Assembly (NCBI GenBank): GCA_902794075.1
Contig: CADBGE010000001.1
Location: 276,477 to 340,476 of the forward strand
Direction: 5' to 3'
DNA from: an uncultured Erysipelotrichaceae bacterium
Lineage (GTDB): Bacteria > Bacillota_I > Bacilli_A > RF39 > UBA660
DNA length: 64,000 bases
The notes under the pieces were generated by a model. That model saw nothing but the letters and a program-made list of their open reading frames with translations, did no database searches and was not told the origin of the DNA. This document shows positions 25,698-53,177 of the stretch, piece after piece. Positions within the stretch are counted from its first letter, which is position 1, and each line of letters begins with the position of its first letter. Position numbers and translations under genes: made by a program.

Positions 25698-26501
25698 TTA
25701 CTTTGTTACTACAAATTCATATTCCTCACCAACGTATCCTCCTGAAACACAAACTTTAGTGCCAATAGGAAGTTTCCACTTTCTGATTTTTCTTTTAAGT
25801 GCTGTTATTGTTTTTACATGTGCAGTATTTGATGTCCATTTTGAAACAACAAATTCATCCATAAAATCCCATGTATCTGTATCATCACTATACCACATAG
25901 AATCATATTTGTCATTTGTATTTTCTACAGTTACCCACCATAATCCCTTTAATGGTCTTTCAAAAGGAATTGTTTTCTTTCCGTTCGGTGACTTAATCAA
26001 TCTGAAATGAGCTCCATACTCAACATCAGTGCGATATGGTGAAACATACAATTCTGCATCAAGGATTTCTTCATAAGATGATTTTTCAAGACCTTTAATT
26101 GTCATTGTGCCGTCCTCATTGAAGATGAAATCCTCAAGTTTGGCCCAAAATGGTGCACCATCTTTATCAGGATCATAATTCTTTACATTTTCATAAAACT
26201 CACGGATTCGTTCCTGTGACCAATATCCATAATTGATCATAAGATCTTTCTGAACACTTTCGATTGGGCAGTTACGGATGATGTACGCATCAACATAATA
26301 CGGTGCAGAATATACTGGGTGAGTTACATTTTCTCCATTTTTGTCAAACCAACTCTCCTTATCCCAATAATCAAAGAAATATTCCATCAATGAAACTTCT
26401 TTTCCATACTTATCGCGCAATTTTGGCTGTGCCTTCAACCAATTACGAAACTGTATATATTCGTCGTATGAATTAACATAAATTTTATCAATAGCTGCCA
26501 T
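25698..26501 (-). CDS. hypothetical protein
   Basis: 267-aa ORF. Confidence 0.55.
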   Translation of the reverse strand: MAAIDKIYVNSYDEYIQFRNWLKAQPKLRDKYGKEVSLMEYFFDYWDKESWFDKNGENVTHPVYSAPYYVDAYIIRNCPIESVQKDLMINYGYWSQERIREFYENVKNYDPDKDGAPFWAKLEDFIFNEDGTMTIKGLEKSSYEEILDAELYVSPYRTDVEYGAHFRLIKSPNGKKTIPFERPLKGLWWVTVENTNDKYDSMWYSDDTDTWDFMDEFVVSKWTSNTAHVKTITALKRKIRKWKLPIGTKVCVSGGYVGEEYEFVVTK

Positions 26502-26506
26502 AATCT

Positions 26507-26779
26507 TTAAATTTTTTCTATTAGTTCAAAAAACATTTTAACGATAACATTATAATTTTTCTGCTCATCATCATTCAATTCCCATGGACGATTACTTACT
26601 GAATTAATATCATAATCATCGCCAGATTTTTCTGCAAATGAAAGAACATAACAATAATCTTTTCCTTGACTATCTTTTCGCCATTTGATAATTTCATACA
26701 TGTCATCCTTATTTTCAAAACCTTTATAAGGACGAACCTCAATGTCATCAATACGAATATTAATATTTTTCATAATCAT
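26507..26779 (-). CDS. hypothetical protein
   Basis: 90-aa ORF, first gene after a promoter-motif copy. Confidence 0.5.
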   Translation of the reverse strand: MIMKNINIRIDDIEVRPYKGFENKDDMYEIIKWRKDSQGKDYCYVLSFAEKSGDDYDINSVSNRPWELNDDEQKNYNVIVKMFFELIEKI

Positions 26780-26788
26780 ATTTTTTAA

Positions 26789-26829
26789 ATTACGATTATA
26801 AAATATATAAATGATTAGGAAAATTCAAA
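26789..26829 (-). promoter_or_regulatory. 41-bp conserved promoter motif, class copy 5
   Basis: attacgattataaaatatataaatg...aaattcaaa with 32-nt spacing. Confidence 0.6.
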
Positions 26830-26832
26830 AAA

Positions 26833-27306
26833 TTATGATTTATCTTTATAATAATTTACCCATTTACGAAATGCTTTATCATGTTTTTCACGGTATTCGT
26901 CATATTTATTCATAAATTCATCAAACGTGATTTCCTCAAATGAATTCACAAATTTCTCAATGAATGTTTCACCAATGTTAGACCATTGATTATCTACATC
27001 AACGGTAAGCCAACACATATCGGAATAGTCTTCTTCAAATTCTCCGTAAAAACCACAAAACTCAAAAACATATTTTTTATCACTTCTATCATACCATAAA
27101 TCATGAACAATACCATACCAATCCTGACTTTGTTCAAACCAATGCTTAAAATGATATGGAGTATTCTTCTTAAGAGCTGATGTAACTTTAGTAACTTTTA
27201 ACTTTGATTCTTTATCACGAAGAATTTGTATTTGATCATAAAGTTCTCCAATCTTATCCTCTAATTCCTGATATTCTTTATTTATCATTGAAATGTTATC
27301 GCTCAT
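26833..27306 (-). CDS. hypothetical protein
   Basis: 157-aa ORF with an N-terminal coiled-coil-like stretch. Confidence 0.55.
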   Translation of the reverse strand: MSDNISMINKEYQELEDKIGELYDQIQILRDKESKLKVTKVTSALKKNTPYHFKHWFEQSQDWYGIVHDLWYDRSDKKYVFEFCGFYGEFEEDYSDMCWLTVDVDNQWSNIGETFIEKFVNSFEEITFDEFMNKYDEYREKHDKAFRKWVNYYKDKS

Positions 27307-27370
27307 AATAATTTAATTTTTAATAATTATGTACTAAAATCTATATAATTTATAAACTATTGTAAAATTT

Positions 27371-27419
27371 ATATTATATAATATAGTATTTTTTCATAAG
27401 AAATTCAAATTTAGACATA
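27371..27419 (-). promoter_or_regulatory. promoter-like motif copy (variant), marks the phage side of the IS junction
   Basis: aaattcaaa at 27411-27419 with tatattatataatatag upstream of the ATG at 27306. Confidence 0.45.
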
Positions 27420-27444
27420 CATTTTTAAACATTTTAACACACAT

Positions 27445-28653
27445 CTAAACTTTTATTCTAATTGGGTTGTACACGAACCTCATATCTGCTGGTACTATAT
27501 TTTGTACATCACAGTTACATTTTTCTATTCCTAAACGCATAATATTGAATGATCCATTTATGTCAGCATTAATGTATAAACCATTTGCAGTTCTAAACAT
27601 TCCTCTATTTATGCGTTTTCCTTTATATGTTTCATGCTTACAAATCTTTTCATTATCAATAAAACTACACTTAGATGTATATGCTTCATTCACTATAATC
27701 ATATGTATTCCTGCTAACTTACACTTGTAATTAAGCATTTGTATTAACATATTGTATGGCACAGAAACAAAGTTTTGATTGTTTGTCTTACCTATGTTGA
27801 TACTGTCTTTCCAACCATTGTTCTTACCTACAAATAATGTATTAAGATTGTTTGTTTTCATATATTCAACTATAGAATAAGATATCTTATGCATATAATC
27901 TTTTATCTTGTTATTTCTACGATTAGTAAGTCTTTGTATTCTTTTGCTTGTATGTTTATGTTTTGTCAACTTAGATTGAAGCTGTCCCTTTCTTTTGTTA
28001 TAGAAATGATTAATTGATTTTAATTTTCTTCCATCATATATCATTGACTGACATACATTTGATGTCAATGTAGCTAAATTGTTTAATCCAAGATCTATAC
28101 TTCCAAATCTATTATTGTTTTCTTTTAACTCATATTCTTTATTATATATTATTTCTATTATGATATGATTTCCTCTTGGTATTATTCTAACTTGCTGTAT
28201 GTTTTCTTTGTCTGTTTTTAGTTCAATCCTATTGTGTTTGTCTATCTTTAATGTCAATATATTGTTCTTTATTTTAAAACATTGGTTAGTGTATGTTACT
28301 ATATTTCTACCTTTTTCTTTGTCTTTATAATGCGGCAATCTAACTTTCTTGCCTTTTATCTTAACTGATTTTATTGCTTTATAAAAAGACTTATATTGTT
28401 TGTCTATCTGCATTAATATCTGTTGTGCGCATTGTGTGTAAGGCAGAGAACGATAATCTATTTGGTTTTCAGATGATAACCGTTTATTCAAATCATAATA
28501 TGAAAGATGTGTTTTTGTTTCTTTGTAATGCTGTCTTATCTGATATAGTGCATAGTTATATAGATTCTTAGACTTTAAGCACAACTGATCTAACATAGAA
28601 AAATATCTATGTCTATTGTTTATAATTACCTGTTGTGTCAATTGAATTTTCAT
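27445..28653 (-). CDS. tnpB: TnpB (OrfB) RNA-guided endonuclease-family protein
   Basis: 402 aa. RuvC-I GSIDLGLNNLATL (D), RuvC-II IIVNEAYTSKCS (E), RuvC-III INADINGSFNI (D). The zinc-finger region has only two Cys (KCSF...ICKHE). Confidence 0.85.
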   Translation of the reverse strand: MKIQLTQQVIINNRHRYFSMLDQLCLKSKNLYNYALYQIRQHYKETKTHLSYYDLNKRLSSENQIDYRSLPYTQCAQQILMQIDKQYKSFYKAIKSVKIKGKKVRLPHYKDKEKGRNIVTYTNQCFKIKNNILTLKIDKHNRIELKTDKENIQQVRIIPRGNHIIIEIIYNKEYELKENNNRFGSIDLGLNNLATLTSNVCQSMIYDGRKLKSINHFYNKRKGQLQSKLTKHKHTSKRIQRLTNRRNNKIKDYMHKISYSIVEYMKTNNLNTLFVGKNNGWKDSINIGKTNNQNFVSVPYNMLIQMLNYKCKLAGIHMIIVNEAYTSKCSFIDNEKICKHETYKGKRINRGMFRTANGLYINADINGSFNIMRLGIEKCNCDVQNIVPADMRFVYNPIRIKV

Positions 28654-29252
28654 ATGTCAACTTCCAAGTTTTCTTCTATCAACTTAAGTTTATTTTTTCT
28701 ACGTTTAGAATACATTTTCATAGCAAAACAATGTATAAGAGATATAATGTCTTCAAATATTTCTTTATCATCATTGTCATTATTTTCTAATATGTCATTC
28801 ATAACTATTATATCACAATTAAATGATTTAAATAACTCTTTCCACATATTGAAACTAACTCTACTAAACCTATCTTTATTTGATATTAACACTGTTTTTA
28901 TTTTATGTTCTATCACATCAAATAACATATCTTTAAAGTTTTGTCTGTCAAAAGACACACCTGATGCAATGTCTTTATATATTTTGTTCACTACAAAACC
29001 ATTGCTATTTGCAAATAATTTTAATGTTTCTATCTGATTTTCTAAATCTTTTTTCTGTTTAGAAGTAGACACTCTTGCATATATGACAATATCACGTATT
29101 GGGCTAATACCAGCTATAGCATAAACATCATCATCGTTATAAATCAAATGTTTATCATTTATTTTTGTTGTTCGTATCTTTCCTTGTTTGGCATATTTAT
29201 ATATAGTATTTCTATGCAAACGTGTTAATTTATGTACATCTTTATATTCCAA
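28650..29252 (-). CDS. tnpA: IS607-type serine recombinase transposase TnpA
   Basis: 200 aa. N-terminal MerR-like HTH (LTRLHRNTIYKYAKQGKI) followed by the resolvase catalytic block VIYARVSTSKQKKDLENQ. Confidence 0.85.
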   Translation of the reverse strand: MEYKDVHKLTRLHRNTIYKYAKQGKIRTTKINDKHLIYNDDDVYAIAGISPIRDIVIYARVSTSKQKKDLENQIETLKLFANSNGFVVNKIYKDIASGVSFDRQNFKDMLFDVIEHKIKTVLISNKDRFSRVSFNMWKELFKSFNCDIIVMNDILENNDNDDKEIFEDIISLIHCFAMKMYSKRRKNKLKLIEENLEVDI

Positions 29253-29280
29253 AATTATATATGTTATATATTTATTTATA

Positions 29281-29320
29281 TATAAAAATAAAAATCTGTA
29301 CTAAATATAATACAGATTTT
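29281..29320 (-). terminator. rho-independent terminator-like hairpin downstream of 29342-29629
   Basis: aaaatctgta (29291-29300) pairs with tacagatttt (29311-29320). On the minus strand the hairpin is followed by TATTTTTATA. Confidence 0.5.
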
Positions 29321-29341
29321 ATAAAAAATTATAAATAATAT

Positions 29342-29629
29342 TTAAATGTTTATTATATTTCTTCTATCAAATTCAGTTATAATATTTTGTGACGGTTTGT
29401 CAACTGATGCCAAATACTTATGATAAAGTTTTTTACAAATAAACGGATTTCCATTACAGCCATTTTCATTCTTATTAGACCAAGGAAGCATACATTCAGG
29501 ATAACCATCATCCCACCACTCACATTTGTTTCCAAATTCAAAAAGCAATTTATTCGCCTTTCTATTAACAGCTATTCTTGGTTTATTTTTAGCCATCTTT
29601 TTTCTTTTGTATACTACATATTTAGCCAC
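29342..29629 (-). CDS. hypothetical basic Cys-rich protein
   Basis: 95-aa ORF. Confidence 0.5.
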   Translation of the reverse strand: MAKYVVYKRKKMAKNKPRIAVNRKANKLLFEFGNKCEWWDDGYPECMLPWSNKNENGCNGNPFICKKLYHKYLASVDKPSQNIITEFDRRNIINI

Positions 29630-30242
29630 CTATACAAACTAATGCATTATTTTCCCAATCAAAAATCTTTAATATATGAATTAAATCAAATATGAGATAT
29701 TCATATGAATTTGCTCCAGAAATAATCCATTTATTATCCATATCTATATTTATATTCAAAAAATGTCTCTTCTCATCGTCAAACCATTCATATTTCCAAC
29801 CATTAGCTTTAATGTTCCATTCTGCTTGATTAGCCTTCATGGCTTCTTCTGCAGTCCACCCTTCTTTTTTATGTAGATACATTGGCGGGTTTAACCACAT
29901 ATCACCCAATTTGTTTTTACTATCAACACGTCTTCCATTAAACCATTTTAAAATATGATTAGTCCGCACTTCTTCTATAATGTTCAAAAATTGTTCTTTG
30001 GATATTGTACCAAAATACATATCATCCTCAATGGACAATTCATTCTTAAATAAACAGGTTGAAAACTTATCTTCACATCCACTCATAATAACATCAGTCA
30101 ATGTGTCATACTTGACGCGTTCTTTTTGGAGTTCATTGAACATTATACCATCTTTATCTGCGCGATAATCATCTTCTGTAAAATTTTCATACTTATGGAC
30201 GATTTCTTTTGGTACGCAATATAAACTAATTCTAAAACCCAT
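29622..30242 (-). CDS. hypothetical protein
   Basis: 206-aa ORF. Confidence 0.55.
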   Translation of the reverse strand: MGFRISLYCVPKEIVHKYENFTEDDYRADKDGIMFNELQKERVKYDTLTDVIMSGCEDKFSTCLFKNELSIEDDMYFGTISKEQFLNIIEEVRTNHILKWFNGRRVDSKNKLGDMWLNPPMYLHKKEGWTAEEAMKANQAEWNIKANGWKYEWFDDEKRHFLNINIDMDNKWIISGANSYEYLIFDLIHILKIFDWENNALVCIGG

Positions 30243-30256
30243 GTTATTAATTATTA

Positions 30257-30517
30257 TTAATTTTCTTGGTAACTATTCAGAATATTTAAGAGTTTTGTCA
30301 TAACCTCAATGTCGTAGTGATATTCTGGATTCATGACCTCTATGAGGTTGTTCACTTTATAGGCGCACGAACCGATAATTGCCTCATATGAGCAAAGTTC
30401 GTCTGTTCGCAAGTCTTCGATAACTTCTTCGATTGTGTCTATTGTTATCTGATGCGGTTTGACATAAGAACTGATACTTAGTTCTTCTACCTGTTCAATA
30501 ATTTTTCTAAATTTCAT
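30257..30517 (-). CDS. hypothetical protein
   Basis: 86-aa ORF. Confidence 0.5.
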   Translation of the reverse strand: MKFRKIIEQVEELSISSYVKPHQITIDTIEEVIEDLRTDELCSYEAIIGSCAYKVNNLIEVMNPEYHYDIEVMTKLLNILNSYQEN

Positions 30518-51788: not shown

Positions 51789-51791
51789 AAT

Positions 51792-53177
51792 TTATTCTAA
51801 TGATATTTGGTTGTTCTTTATAATTTTTTGAAATTCGTCCTTATCTATAAACTTTGAAAGTCCATTTATACTGTTTACATTTATAATGTTCTTTACTTCA
51901 GCTTTATATGCTGCAAGGAATCCTACATCACTATCTTCATATACATATATATTGTTTGATGATATGAAAGGATATTGCATTATTATTTTTTGATATACCT
52001 CAGAATTTGGTTTTCCATTTTTAACATTATCACCAGTTATAATATAATCAAATAAATCATCAATTTCAAAATATTTTAATACATTATCAACATTTTTCTT
52101 TGATGCAGTTGTCGCAAGACATACAATATTTCCATTTTGTTTTGCATGATATAGATATGAATATAGATTTTTATTAATAGATATTTTGTCAAAGTATTTC
52201 TTATATACACGAGATTTTATTTTCTTTACTTCATTTAGTTTAGATTCATCAAGCTTGAGTGCATTAAGAAGTTCATTGATTCGTAATCCAAAATTACTAT
52301 AATAATTATCTTCAGTTAATTCGTAATCATATATCTTTTTAAATGTTTCCTTATATGCTAAATAATTTGCGTTTTTAGTATCAATAAGTGTTCCATCAAG
52401 ATCAGATATATATAATTTCTTAAACTTATTATTAGACGATATGAAATTCATAATCTCGTCACTAGTTCCAATTGAAGTATATTCATCAAGATGTGACAAT
52501 ATAATTTTCGCACCATCATTAATCATTAGATTATATATATAAGATACATAATATTCGTTTGCTTCAAAGTCAGAAACGTTTTTGTCAAGAATCATCTTTG
52601 CATATTTCTTAAACGACTTTCCATTAGAAAATCCATACACACCAGCCAACGCATGATTAGAAATTGGACATTTTTCTGCAGTACGTTTGACTAAATTATT
52701 TTCATTTATTTCAGCATAACTATACTTGTGAAGATTAGAATCAAATGACAATAGAAATCCATCAATGGCTTCATCAGCATCAATTCGTTCAATTATATCA
52801 TATAGATCATTACTTTTAAATACAAGATCACAATCAAGAACTACACATATATCATCATCATCAATAAATGATTCAGCACACATTATAGTCTCAATTGCGC
52901 CTTTAGTTAAATAATCTATTTGAACTAAATTAAATTCATCAGCAAAATTCCAACCAATCTGATTTACTTTTTTTATATAAAAATCGTTCATAATCTCATT
53001 ACGAACAATCATTGTTAACTTTGTTCTATAACTATTCTTAATTTCATTAAATCCACTAAGAGCATATTCAAATAAATATTTCTCAAACAAATTAATAAAA
53101 GGTTTAGGAGAATTATACATATCGGATGTTCGCGTTCCTAAACCGCCCATTGGCATTATAATATGTAAATTTTTCAT
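51792..53177 (-). CDS. bifunctional sugar-phosphate nucleotidyltransferase / HAD-superfamily hydrolase or mutase
   Basis: 461 aa. N-terminal IIMPMGGLGTR (GxGTR nucleotidyltransferase loop). C-terminal half carries ISDLDGTLIDT (HAD motif I DxDxT) and YEDSDVGFLAA (HAD motif IV). Confidence 0.7.
   Translation of the reverse strand: MKNLHIIMPMGGLGTRTSDMYNSPKPFINLFEKYLFEYALSGFNEIKNSYRTKLTMIVRNEIMNDFYIKKVNQIGWNFADEFNLVQIDYLTKGAIETIMCAESFIDDDDICVVLDCDLVFKSNDLYDIIERIDADEAIDGFLLSFDSNLHKYSYAEINENNLVKRTAEKCPISNHALAGVYGFSNGKSFKKYAKMILDKNVSDFEANEYYVSYIYNLMINDGAKIILSHLDEYTSIGTSDEIMNFISSNNKFKKLYISDLDGTLIDTKNANYLAYKETFKKIYDYELTEDNYYSNFGLRINELLNALKLDESKLNEVKKIKSRVYKKYFDKISINKNLYSYLYHAKQNGNIVCLATTASKKNVDNVLKYFEIDDLFDYIITGDNVKNGKPNSEVYQKIIMQYPFISSNNIYVYEDSDVGFLAAYKAEVKNIINVNSINGLSKFIDKDEFQKIIKNNQISLE

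What the first reader, a model, noticed from the sequence alone, without database searches (positions are those of the whole stretch)
27421..29320. Intact IS607-type element (tnpA plus catalytically complete tnpB) inserted between a phage terminator and a phage promoter
A MerR-HTH serine recombinase (ARVSTSKQ) overlaps by 4 nt a 402-aa TnpB that retains the RuvC D/E/D triad (IDLG, NEAYTS, NADING). The pair sits exactly between a terminator-like hairpin (29291-29320) and a copy of the recurrent phage promoter motif (27371-27419). This is a neutral intergenic slot, consistent with a relatively recent insertion into a lytic-looking phage. The TnpB stop is within about 25 nt of the phage promoter. 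Most of any omega RNA (reRNA) scaffold must therefore lie inside the 3' end of tnpB (roughly 27445-27650), and the guide would be read from the phage flank at about 27400-27440.
Basis: partly seen in the sequence, partly recalled or inferred. Interest (0 to 1): 0.6.

Follow-up and report, generated by a model that had tools for sequence, protein, structure and literature searches.

The report
IS607 jumping gene in rumen megaphage
A complete 2-kb jumping gene of a known family (IS607, with a recombinase, an RNA-guided nuclease TnpB and its guide RNA) sits in a 400-kb cattle-gut phage. The "phage terminator" and "phage promoter" beside it are the element's own ends, so this is a well-defined but ordinary example of a known kind.

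Summary
The two genes are real and intact. tnpA (28650-29252, minus) is an IS607-type serine recombinase. tnpB (27445-28653, minus) is an RNA-guided nuclease, and the genes overlap by 4 nt.

The element is larger than the finding says: 27329-29354, 2026 bp. Comparison with about 30 other copies at about 19 different sites, one filled/empty pair (L013/L012), and an empty allele of this very site in goat-gut runs fix both ends.

- **Target.** It is 5'-WWATAT, with AT shared at both junctions.
- **Insertion point.** The element landed in the last codons of an upstream gene, 22 nt before the next gene. It is not in a neutral terminator/promoter gap.
- **Guide RNA.** The scaffold is 27329-27515: about 70 nt of tnpB 3' end plus a 116-nt tail. 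Covariation supports it, including a pseudoknot with the last six bases of the element. The guide would be 27328 to about 27309, not 27400-27440.
- **TnpB active site.** It is the known rearranged type: Gly at the usual RuvC-II position and an alternative Glu323.
- **Distribution.** Close relatives were seen only on AT-rich, mostly phage-like contigs.

Verdict: new member of a known kind.

The parts
27329..29354 (-). Whole IS607-family element, 2026 bp (left end, tnpA, tnpB, omega RNA, right end)
   Evidence: The ends were defined in three ways: similarity to about 30 other copies stops here; the filled/empty pair L013/L012; and the empty allele of this site in runs X42 and X44.
29355..29360 (-). 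Target motif / inferred TAM on the left flank, AAATAT (consensus 5'-WWATAT). The last AT is the inferred crossover dinucleotide and is repeated as the last two bases of the right end.
   Evidence: In 21 of 21 left junctions (about 19 distinct flanks), positions -4 to -1 are ATAT and positions -5 and -6 are A or T.
29253..29354 (-). Left end (LE), 102 nt upstream of tnpA. No terminal inverted repeat with the right end.
   Evidence: Conserved in all copies at unrelated sites.
29291..29320 (-). A related TATAGATTTT lies in the right end at 27336-27345. Inferred to be a TnpA binding site.
   Evidence: Other copies read TATATATTTT in the second arm, so the perfect hairpin is specific to this copy.
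28650..29252 (-). tnpA: serine recombinase with the HTH at the N-terminus, 200 aa, nucleophile Ser62 in YARVSTSKQ
   Evidence: Pfam match. PDB sequence matches to the IS607-family TnpA catalytic domains 6dgc (5.7e-22), 3lhk, 3ilx and 6dgb. dN/dS about 0.01 against other copies.
27445..28653 (-). tnpB: RNA-guided nuclease, 402 aa, with D187, G276 (the usual RuvC-II Glu position), alternative E323 and D364. The zinc finger is degenerate.
   Evidence: AlphaFold2 model with pLDDT 89. Foldseek top match is ISDra2 TnpB 8h1j, TM 0.67/0.73. dN/dS about 0.13.
27329..27515 (-). Omega (guide) RNA scaffold. Stem A 27486-27514, stem B 27464-27481, stem C 27399-27459 (spans the tnpB stop codon), stem D 27336-27392. 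A pseudoknot pairs 27469-27474 (GUGUAC) with 27329-27334 (GUACAU).
   Evidence: Covariation counts. Covariance model R1 matches the window only here, at 151.9 bits, and matches the tnpB 3' end in all relatives.
27380..27408 (-). TTGAAT-N17-TATATT promoter inside the right end, reading outward toward the next gene. It matches the phage's recurrent promoter consensus.
   Evidence: Conserved in all close copies at other sites.
27309..27328 (-). Predicted guide segment, AATTATTAAAAATTAAATTA. Its length of 16-20 nt is assumed from characterised TnpBs.
   Evidence: It is the first variable sequence after the conserved right end.
29342..29629 (-). Upstream phage gene (95 aa). Its last four codons and stop codon are now supplied by the element.
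   Evidence: Joined-flank translation and the empty allele.
26833..27306 (-). Downstream phage gene (157 aa), co-directional, starting 22 nt after the right end

Best explanation
Window 27329-29354 (minus strand) is one intact copy of an IS607-family insertion sequence. The lineage was found only on AT-rich contigs, most of them phage-like.

**Shown by comparison**
- The element ends are defined by other copies and by empty sites.
- There are many near-identical copies at different sites.
- An empty allele of this site exists.
- The target motif is 5'-WWATAT, and AT is the only dinucleotide shared by both junctions.
- Both genes are under purifying selection.
- A conserved, covarying RNA structure spans the last ~70 nt of tnpB and the 116-nt tail, and ends exactly at the right end.

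**Inferred from the characterised IS607 and TnpB systems**
- TnpA, a serine recombinase, excises the element as a double-stranded circle. It reseals the donor without a scar and integrates at WWATAT sites by crossover at AT.
- TnpB binds the omega RNA. Its 3' guide is read from the phage flank (27328 downward).
- The complex cuts an emptied site, where the TAM (WWATAT) is followed by the guide match. Recombination with a filled genome copy then restores the element. In a phage this would happen among replicating or co-infecting genomes.
- The right end carries a promoter of the phage's own consensus that reads outward. It most likely keeps the downstream gene expressed after insertion. It may also drive tnpA across the joint in the excised circle.
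For: **Genes and fold.** Pfam, PDB and structure matches are. D187, G276, E323 and D364 are invariant in 34 relatives. This fits the RuvC-II-rearranged TnpB class described in PMC10691335.

**Ends.** Alignment of copies at unrelated sites is. L012 (empty) versus L013 (filled) is. Metatranscriptome contigs of other copies stop matching at 27326-27328.

**Mobility.** TnpA is 99-100% identical in more than 200 contig blocks, next to different genes. Subgroups 99.3-99.4% identical in DNA lie at different sites.

**Target motif.** The tallies are.

**Selection.** dN/dS is 0.01 for tnpA and 0.13 for tnpB.

**RNA.**
- Stems A and B: 92% of cells paired, 7 pairs with double changes, 0 of 500 shuffles as good.
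- Pseudoknot: 100% paired in 14 sequences, with compensatory changes.
- Covariance model R1: a single window match at 27329-27515, and matches at the tnpB 3' end in relatives down to about 40% protein identity.
- Model-based alignment: 90.7% paired and 34 of 36 pairs with double changes. That alignment was fitted to the structure, so the counts lean toward it.

**Promoter.** All 15 copies with a called downstream gene are co-directional with it and lie 0-128 nt upstream of its start.

**Mechanism by analogy.** For IS607, TnpA-S uses a core dinucleotide, leaves a scarless donor joint, and TnpB restores the element (PMC10690162).
Against: - No experiment or RNA data show the omega RNA, its ends or any cleavage. 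The RNA contigs found belong to other copies and may include DNA.
- The fold of this single sequence is no more stable than shuffled sequence, z = -0.86. The RNA model therefore rests on comparison alone.
- This exact copy is seen only at this one site, in 11-12 contigs. Its own current mobility is not shown.
- The only empty allele found has one extra 7-nt repeat unit next to the joint. The predicted guide would match it for only 9 nt. That allele rests on low-depth contigs (depth 2-5) from one study.
- One copy (L020) ends in GTATAT, which resembles the inferred TAM. The TAM definition is therefore incomplete.
- The promoter lies inside the RNA scaffold, so transcripts from it cannot make a full omega RNA.
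- The whole genome could not be searched for further copies.
Confidence: 0.85

Rival explanations
1. The element spans only about 27421-29320 and sits between a phage terminator and a phage promoter. The omega RNA lies inside tnpB and the guide is at 27400-27440.
For: The hairpin and a match to the phage promoter consensus do flank the two genes.
Against: Both features are carried by every other copy at unrelated sites. The empty allele lacks both. The sequence at 27329-27444 is conserved among copies, so it is scaffold and not guide.
Confidence: 0.03
2. This copy is fixed or domesticated. It no longer moves and is kept because it benefits the phage. Possible benefits are the right-end promoter driving the downstream gene, or TnpB cutting competing phage genomes that lack the element during co-infection.
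For: The exact variant is always at this one site, in 11-12 contigs from several samples. It differs by about 7% in DNA from copies elsewhere. The perfect left-end hairpin is unique to this copy.
Against: tnpA is intact and under very strong purifying selection, which a fixed element would not need. Both ends are intact. An empty allele exists in a close relative. Sister subgroups are clearly mobile.
Confidence: 0.12
3. The element was recently picked up from the bacterial host chromosome, so identical host copies would reveal the host.
For: IS elements often move between hosts and their phages. The family is widespread in bacteria (PMC10690162).
Against: No relative above 37% identity was found in one genome each of 185,579 bacterial and archaeal species. 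All close relatives lie on AT-rich contigs, many of 100-400 kb and several carrying phage genes. The right end carries the phage's own promoter consensus. The search method finds close relatives only and covers one genome per species.
Confidence: 0.05

Closest known systems
IS607-family transposons with TnpA-S and TnpB, such as the Clostridium botulinum IS607 element/CboIStron (PMC10690162) and H. pylori IS607 (PMC6188088)
   Same: - A serine recombinase with an N-terminal HTH, followed by a co-oriented tnpB that overlaps it.
- No terminal inverted repeats and no target duplication.
- A core dinucleotide shared by both junctions.
- A guide RNA at the right end.
- Frequent tnpA-less derivatives.
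   Different: - The core dinucleotide is AT and the target is 5'-WWATAT, instead of GG and TGGG.
- The lineage was seen only on AT-rich, mostly phage-like contigs.
- The right end carries an outward promoter of the phage's consensus.
- No group I intron is present.
ISFba1-type IS607 TnpB with RAGATH-18-derived reRNA (PMC11061315; PDB 8iaz)
   Same: It is an IS607-associated TnpB of similar size and fold (Foldseek TM 0.61/0.63), with a structured scaffold of about 190 nt followed by a guide.
   Different: - There is no RAGATH-18 match, even at E up to 10.
- The scaffold overlaps the tnpB 3' end instead of lying wholly downstream.
- The inferred TAM is A/T-only, not AGGAG.
- The catalytic Glu is at the alternative position; ISFba1 has the canonical D194/E290/D371.
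RuvC-II-rearranged TnpB clades (RIIr/Ser branches of Altae-Tran et al., PMC10691335) and Fanzor2 (PDB 9b0l)
   Same: Gly replaces the canonical RuvC-II Glu, and an alternative Glu lies about 45 residues downstream. The zinc finger is degenerate. Some such branches are reported as virus-specific.
   Different: Assignment to a named branch was not tested. Fanzors are eukaryotic or giant-virus proteins; this one is in a bacteriophage with a serine recombinase partner.
ISDra2 TnpB and its omega RNA (PDB 8h1j, 8exa; PMC8612924)
   Same: It is the best structural match (TM 0.67/0.73). The omega RNA overlaps the tnpB 3' end and ends at the right end. A pseudoknot involves the scaffold's 3' end.
   Different: ISDra2 belongs to IS200/IS605, with a Y1 transposase and single-strand transposition. 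Its TAM is TTGAT and its RuvC-II Glu is canonical. Sequence identity is only about 18%.

Membership tests
IS607 family (transposon) | TnpA is a serine recombinase with the DNA-binding HTH at the N-terminus and the catalytic domain at the C-terminus | tested here: met
   Resolvase domain at residues 55-190 (E=1.6e-22). HTH_17 at residues 5-36 (E=1e-4, below Pfam's cut-off). PDB sequence matches to IS607-family TnpA catalytic domains 6dgc, 3ilx and 6dgb.
IS607 family (transposon) | No terminal inverted repeats and no target-site duplication; scarless empty site | tested here: met
   The LE starts AATAAACATTT and the RE ends TTTTAGTACAT; they are not reverse complements. L012 (empty) versus L013 (filled) shows no duplication beyond the shared AT(AA).
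IS607 family (transposon) | The same core dinucleotide at both junctions (crossover site of the serine recombinase) | tested here: met
   AT is the only dinucleotide present at all 21 left and 18 right junctions. The chemistry itself is inferred.
IS607 family (transposon) | Mobility: related copies at different genomic sites | tested here: met
   About 19 distinct left flanks and 16 distinct right flanks. Copies 99.3-99.4% identical lie at different sites. For this exact copy only one site is known.
IS607 family (transposon) | TnpA-catalysed excision to a circle and integration | not testable with these tools
   Needs a transposition assay. No circle junction was seen in assembled contigs.
TnpB / OMEGA RNA-guided nucleases | RuvC-like nuclease fold with three catalytic acidic residues | tested here: met
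   AlphaFold2 model with pLDDT 89. Foldseek matches to TnpB, Cas12f and Fanzor2 structures. D187, E323 and D364 are invariant, and the canonical Glu position is an invariant Gly276, which marks the rearranged type (PMC10691335).
TnpB / OMEGA RNA-guided nucleases | Structured guide RNA encoded at the tnpB 3' end and ending at the transposon right end, with the guide read from the flank | tested here: met
   The model matches end exactly at the right-end boundary in all copies. Expression and processing were not shown.
TnpB / OMEGA RNA-guided nucleases | TAM equal to the transposon's target motif on the left flank | tested here: inconclusive
   The left flank is invariably WWATAT. This shows the integration preference. 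That TnpB reads it as a TAM is inferred by analogy with other TnpB systems (PMC10690162).
TnpB / OMEGA RNA-guided nucleases | RNA-guided DNA cleavage | not testable with these tools
   Needs biochemical or in vivo interference assays.
RAGATH-18-type IS607 reRNA (Rfam) | Match to the RAGATH-18 covariance model downstream of tnpB | tested here: not met
   No Rfam match at gathering score in the whole window. No match at E up to 10 in 27200-27750.

The most novel reading that the evidence does not exclude
This may be a phage-restricted IS607 lineage built to live inside tightly packed phage operons.

- **Orientation.** It inserts, or survives, only just upstream of genes and in the same orientation as them.
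- **Promoter.** It carries a copy of the phage's own promoter in its right end. That promoter could replace the transcription the insertion interrupts. In the excised circle it could switch on tnpA across the joint.
- **Homing.** TnpB and its guide RNA could act as a homing nuclease between co-infecting phage genomes, converting empty alleles.
- **DNA modification.** The recognition motifs are made only of A and T (WWATAT target, AT crossover). This might also let the element work on phage DNA whose cytosines are hypermodified, as earlier notes on this genome propose.
Probability: 0.3. Interest if true: 0.6.

Novelty: new member of a known kind. Interest (0 to 1): 0.38.

Why it matters
This copy gives base-precise ends, a target motif and a testable guide-RNA model for an IS607/TnpB lineage seen only on AT-rich, mostly phage-like gut contigs.

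Its features differ from the characterised IS607 systems: an A/T-only target, an RNA not represented in Rfam, and the rearranged catalytic site. It could therefore widen the known TAM and scaffold range of compact RNA-guided nucleases.

The strict co-orientation with downstream genes and the promoter in the right end suggest how a transposon can live in a lytic-looking phage without breaking operons. This could be tested with ordinary phage genetics.

The result also corrects an annotation trap. Features that look like phage terminators and promoters next to a mobile element may belong to the element.

Tried and rejected
- **Phage reference DNA.** A near-identity DNA search of 26500-30300 against 50,697 phage records gave nothing.
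- **Whole-genome search.** The tool was shut, so other copies in this 400-kb genome could not be counted.
- **Related phages as empty sites.** Phages found through the 206-aa neighbour (L002-L004) lose synteny right after that gene and were useless as empty sites. The 157-aa neighbour has no relatives in IMG/VR.
- **Exact patterns in IMG/VR.** Exact LE, RE and joined-flank patterns were absent.
- **Best-matching runs.** Contigs of runs X1-X4 showed only the filled site.
- **Joined flanks as a read target.** The empty allele was instead read from loose ends of contigs laid on each flank.
- **Catalytic residues by sequence alignment.** Alignment to ISDra2 TnpB reaches only the first Asp. The other two catalytic residues rest on invariance and on the published description of the rearranged class.
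- **Single-sequence folding.** It is not significant, z = -0.86.
- **Promoter targeting.** I considered that the element specifically targets promoter -10 boxes. Three of 19 sites are in a TTRAAT-N17-TATAT box. That is not clearly more than expected for intergenic WWATAT sites (up to 16 of 210 in this window), so I do not claim it.
- **TAYAKATTTT as a TnpA site.** The motif is only weakly enriched: 13 found against 6.7 expected.
Full report
**1. What is in the sequence**

On the minus strand lie two genes. One is a 200-aa ORF at 28650-29252 with a TTG start. The other is a 402-aa ORF at 27445-28653. They overlap by the 4 nt ATGA.

The first ORF is a serine recombinase. It matches Pfam Resolvase (E=1.6e-22) at residues 55-190. 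A weak helix-turn-helix match lies at residues 5-36. Its closest solved relatives by sequence are catalytic domains of IS607-family TnpA proteins: ISC1926 6dgc at 5.7e-22, ISC1904 3ilx, IS1535 6dgb, and the related MJ0014 protein 3lhk.

The second ORF matches OrfB_IS605 and the Cas12f1-like TNB domain. An AlphaFold2 model has mean pLDDT 89. Its best structural matches are ISDra2 TnpB (8h1j, TM 0.67/0.73), Cas12f, ISFba1 TnpB and Fanzor2.

**2. The host replicon**

The window is AT-rich (29% G+C) and carries baseplate, tail-fibre and tRNA genes. Exactly the same neighbouring proteins occur on contigs of about 400 kb. Sequencing runs that hold the stretch are bovine, sheep and goat gut metagenomes. 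The baseplate protein's distant relatives are Prevotella Lak phages and other jumbo phages. The standard genetic code fits.

**3. True ends of the element**

TnpB relatives of 90-93% identity are common in metagenomes, and the TnpA protein is 99-100% identical in more than 200 contig blocks. Fetching these contigs shows the same element beside many different genes. Neighbours include a DNA polymerase B-like gene, DNA ligase, Hsp70/DnaJ, ribonucleotide reductase with thioredoxin, peptidases and others.

Aligning the junctions gives the boundaries.

- On the left, every copy shares ...AATAAA(C/T)AT(T/A)TAAATATTATTTATAATTTTTTATAAAATCTGTATTAT..., and the sequences diverge upstream of it.
- On the right, every copy ends ...TATATAGATTTTAGTACAT, and the sequences diverge after it.
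- Two related contigs give a clean filled/empty pair. L012 reads GCAATATATAACATTAC where L013 carries a tnpA-less copy.

In the window this places the element at 27329-29354, 2026 bp.

Contigs from goat-gut runs X42 and X44 confirm this. They are about 98% identical over the right flank and join the two flanks without the element. On the plus strand they read ...TTTTTAATAATT + AATAATT + ATATTTCTTCTG.... This is the predicted joint plus one extra copy of a 7-nt tandem unit.

Both the hairpin (29291-29320) and the promoter motif (27380-27408) therefore lie inside the element and travel with it.

The perfect 10-bp hairpin is peculiar to this copy. Other copies read TATATATTTT in the second arm. 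The repeated TA(C/T)AGATTTT units in both ends are better read as candidate TnpA binding sites, although the motif is only weakly enriched.

**4. Where it landed**

Joining the flanks restores an upstream gene that ends ...RRNIIIKN*. Its stop codon lies 6 nt before the ATG of the next gene. With the element present, the gene ends ...RRNIINI*, using codons supplied by the left end.

The slot is therefore the extreme 3' end of a gene in a tightly packed, co-directional pair. It is not a neutral intergenic gap.

Across about 19 distinct insertion sites, all are intergenic or within the last few codons of the upstream gene. Only 18% of the 1146 WWATAT sites in this window are intergenic (and the gene tables). 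All 15 copies with a called downstream gene point the same way as that gene and lie 0-128 nt upstream of its start. This points to strong selection for harmless, co-oriented insertions.

**5. Target and crossover**

All 21 left junctions read ATAT at positions -4 to -1 and A or T at positions -5 and -6. Right flanks are variable. The only dinucleotide common to every left and right junction is AT.

By analogy with the GG core and TGGG target of the C. botulinum IS607 element (PMC10690162), AT is the inferred crossover dinucleotide. WWATAT is both the integration motif and the likely TAM.

**6. TnpB active site**

D187, E323 and D364 are invariant in 34 relatives of 29-93% identity. So is Gly276, at the place where canonical TnpBs have the RuvC-II glutamate.

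This is the published rearranged arrangement: Gly at the canonical position and an alternative Glu downstream. Some such branches are reported as virus-specific (PMC10691335).

Sequence alignment to ISDra2 reaches only the first Asp.

**7. Guide RNA**

DNA similarity among copies continues 116 nt past the tnpB stop codon. The scaffold cannot, therefore, lie mostly inside the gene.

A common architecture appears across subfamilies that share 55-93% TnpB identity:

- Stem A, made of two helices, and stem B lie in the last ~70 nt of the ORF.
- Stem C spans the stop codon. It is long in this copy and short in others, and paired in both.
- An A-rich linker follows.
- Stem D comes next, then a short tail.

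The covariation evidence is as follows.

- Stems A and B: 92% of cells paired, 7 pairs with double changes, and no shuffle as good. Controls with the pairing partner shifted by 1-3 columns give 27-40% paired.
- Pseudoknot: the loop of stem B (GUGUAC) pairs with the last six bases of the element (GUACAU). It is paired in 100% of 14 sequences. Compensatory changes are GUGUAU/AUACAU and GUGUUA/UAACAU.
- Covariance model: a model built from 11 copies matches the window once, at 27329-27515 (151.9 bits). It matches the tnpB 3' end of every relative, including distant ones such as phage csAssE-Sib.
- Model-based alignment: 90.7% of cells pair and 34 of 36 pairs show double changes. That alignment is fitted to the structure, so the counts lean toward it.

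There is no Rfam match, RAGATH-18 included. A single-sequence fold is not significant, and no RNA data show the molecule.

The guide would be the flank from 27328 downward, AATTATTAAAAATTAAATTA. It covers the leader of the next gene.

**8. The promoter inside the right end**

TTGAAT-N17-TATATT at 27408-27380 matches a motif present 10 times in the window against 1.8 expected, nearly all upstream of minus-strand genes. Earlier notes on this genome describe the same consensus. It is conserved in all close copies of the element elsewhere.

It reads outward and lies within the RNA scaffold, so it cannot produce a full guide RNA.

My inference is that it keeps the downstream gene expressed after insertion. 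This fits the strict co-orientation described in section 4. It could also read into tnpA across the RE-LE joint of an excised circle. Neither role is shown.

**9. Age, selection and range**

This copy differs by about 7% in DNA from copies at other sites. Against those copies, tnpA has dN/dS about 0.01 and tnpB about 0.13, with dS of 0.2-0.35. Both proteins are therefore maintained.

Subgroups that are 99.3-99.4% identical lie at different sites, so the family is active. The exact variant in the window is seen only at this site, in 11-12 contigs. The insertion is therefore fixed in this strain group but absent from a close goat-gut relative.

Derivatives that lost tnpA through at least two different deletions are common. 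Decayed copies also exist.

No relative above 37% identity was found in one genome each of 185,579 bacterial and archaeal species. IMG/VR holds only a 74% relative. Host inference from identical copies therefore fails, and the lineage looks phage-restricted within the limits of these searches.

**10. Verdict**

This is an intact, well-delimited IS607-family element with a TnpB of the rearranged class and a guide RNA not yet catalogued. It is a new member of a known kind.

Noticed in passing
L012 1-110; L013 1348-1463; L014 1-54; L006 3830-4000: Many relatives are tnpB-only derivatives that keep a remnant of the tnpA 3' end just before the tnpB ATG. At least two different deletion junctions exist, so tnpA was lost independently more than once.
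   Followed up: partly
window 27385 and 29255 (runs X2, X4, X5): Short contigs (about 182 nt, depth 4-23) join the right-end region near 27385 to the left-end region near 29255, with 15 other letters between. This could be a miniature LE-RE derivative lacking both genes, or an AT-rich chance match.
   Followed up: no
window 27322-27328 and the empty allele in X42/X44: The empty allele has two copies of the 7-nt unit AATTATT where the window has one, directly next to the right end. The predicted guide would match that empty allele for only its first 9 nt.
   Followed up: partly
L014 1362-1366: The last two bases of the right end (AT) plus the flanking G form the ATG start codon of the downstream gene. 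The insertion went into a start codon, and the repeated AT rebuilt it.
   Followed up: no
L018 225-245; window about 51790-51815: In L018 the first two bases of the left end complete the TAA stop codon of the upstream gene. The window's homologue of that gene (51792-53177, minus) has an unoccupied AAATAT motif at the corresponding place near its 3' end.
   Followed up: partly
L119, L120, L123; L109, L110: Contigs share the same left flank but have different right flanks. This is either chimeric assembly across a repeated element or rearrangement between copies.
   Followed up: no
L029 3760-3880: A 75%-identical relative has an extra insert of about 100 nt inside the 3' tail, within the guide-RNA region, that its sisters lack.
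   Followed up: no
window 14808, 17195, 31259, 33348, 34747, 36879, 47691 (minus strand): TTGAATTTT...N17...TATATT promoter-like sites recur upstream of minus-strand genes: 10 matches against 1.8 expected.
   Followed up: partly
L006 8651-9070 (minus): The IMG/VR phage contig that carries the 74% TnpB relative also encodes an IS200-like Y1 transposase-like ORF a few kb away.
   Followed up: no
L118 707-1916; L018 938-1321: Decayed copies exist. In one, tnpB is split into 141 and 213 aa. In another, tnpB is cut to 127 aa and followed by genes on the other strand.
   Followed up: no
L020 2107-2120: One copy ends in GTATAT instead of GTACAT. The pseudoknot still pairs through a G-U pair, but the end now resembles the inferred TAM.
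   Followed up: no
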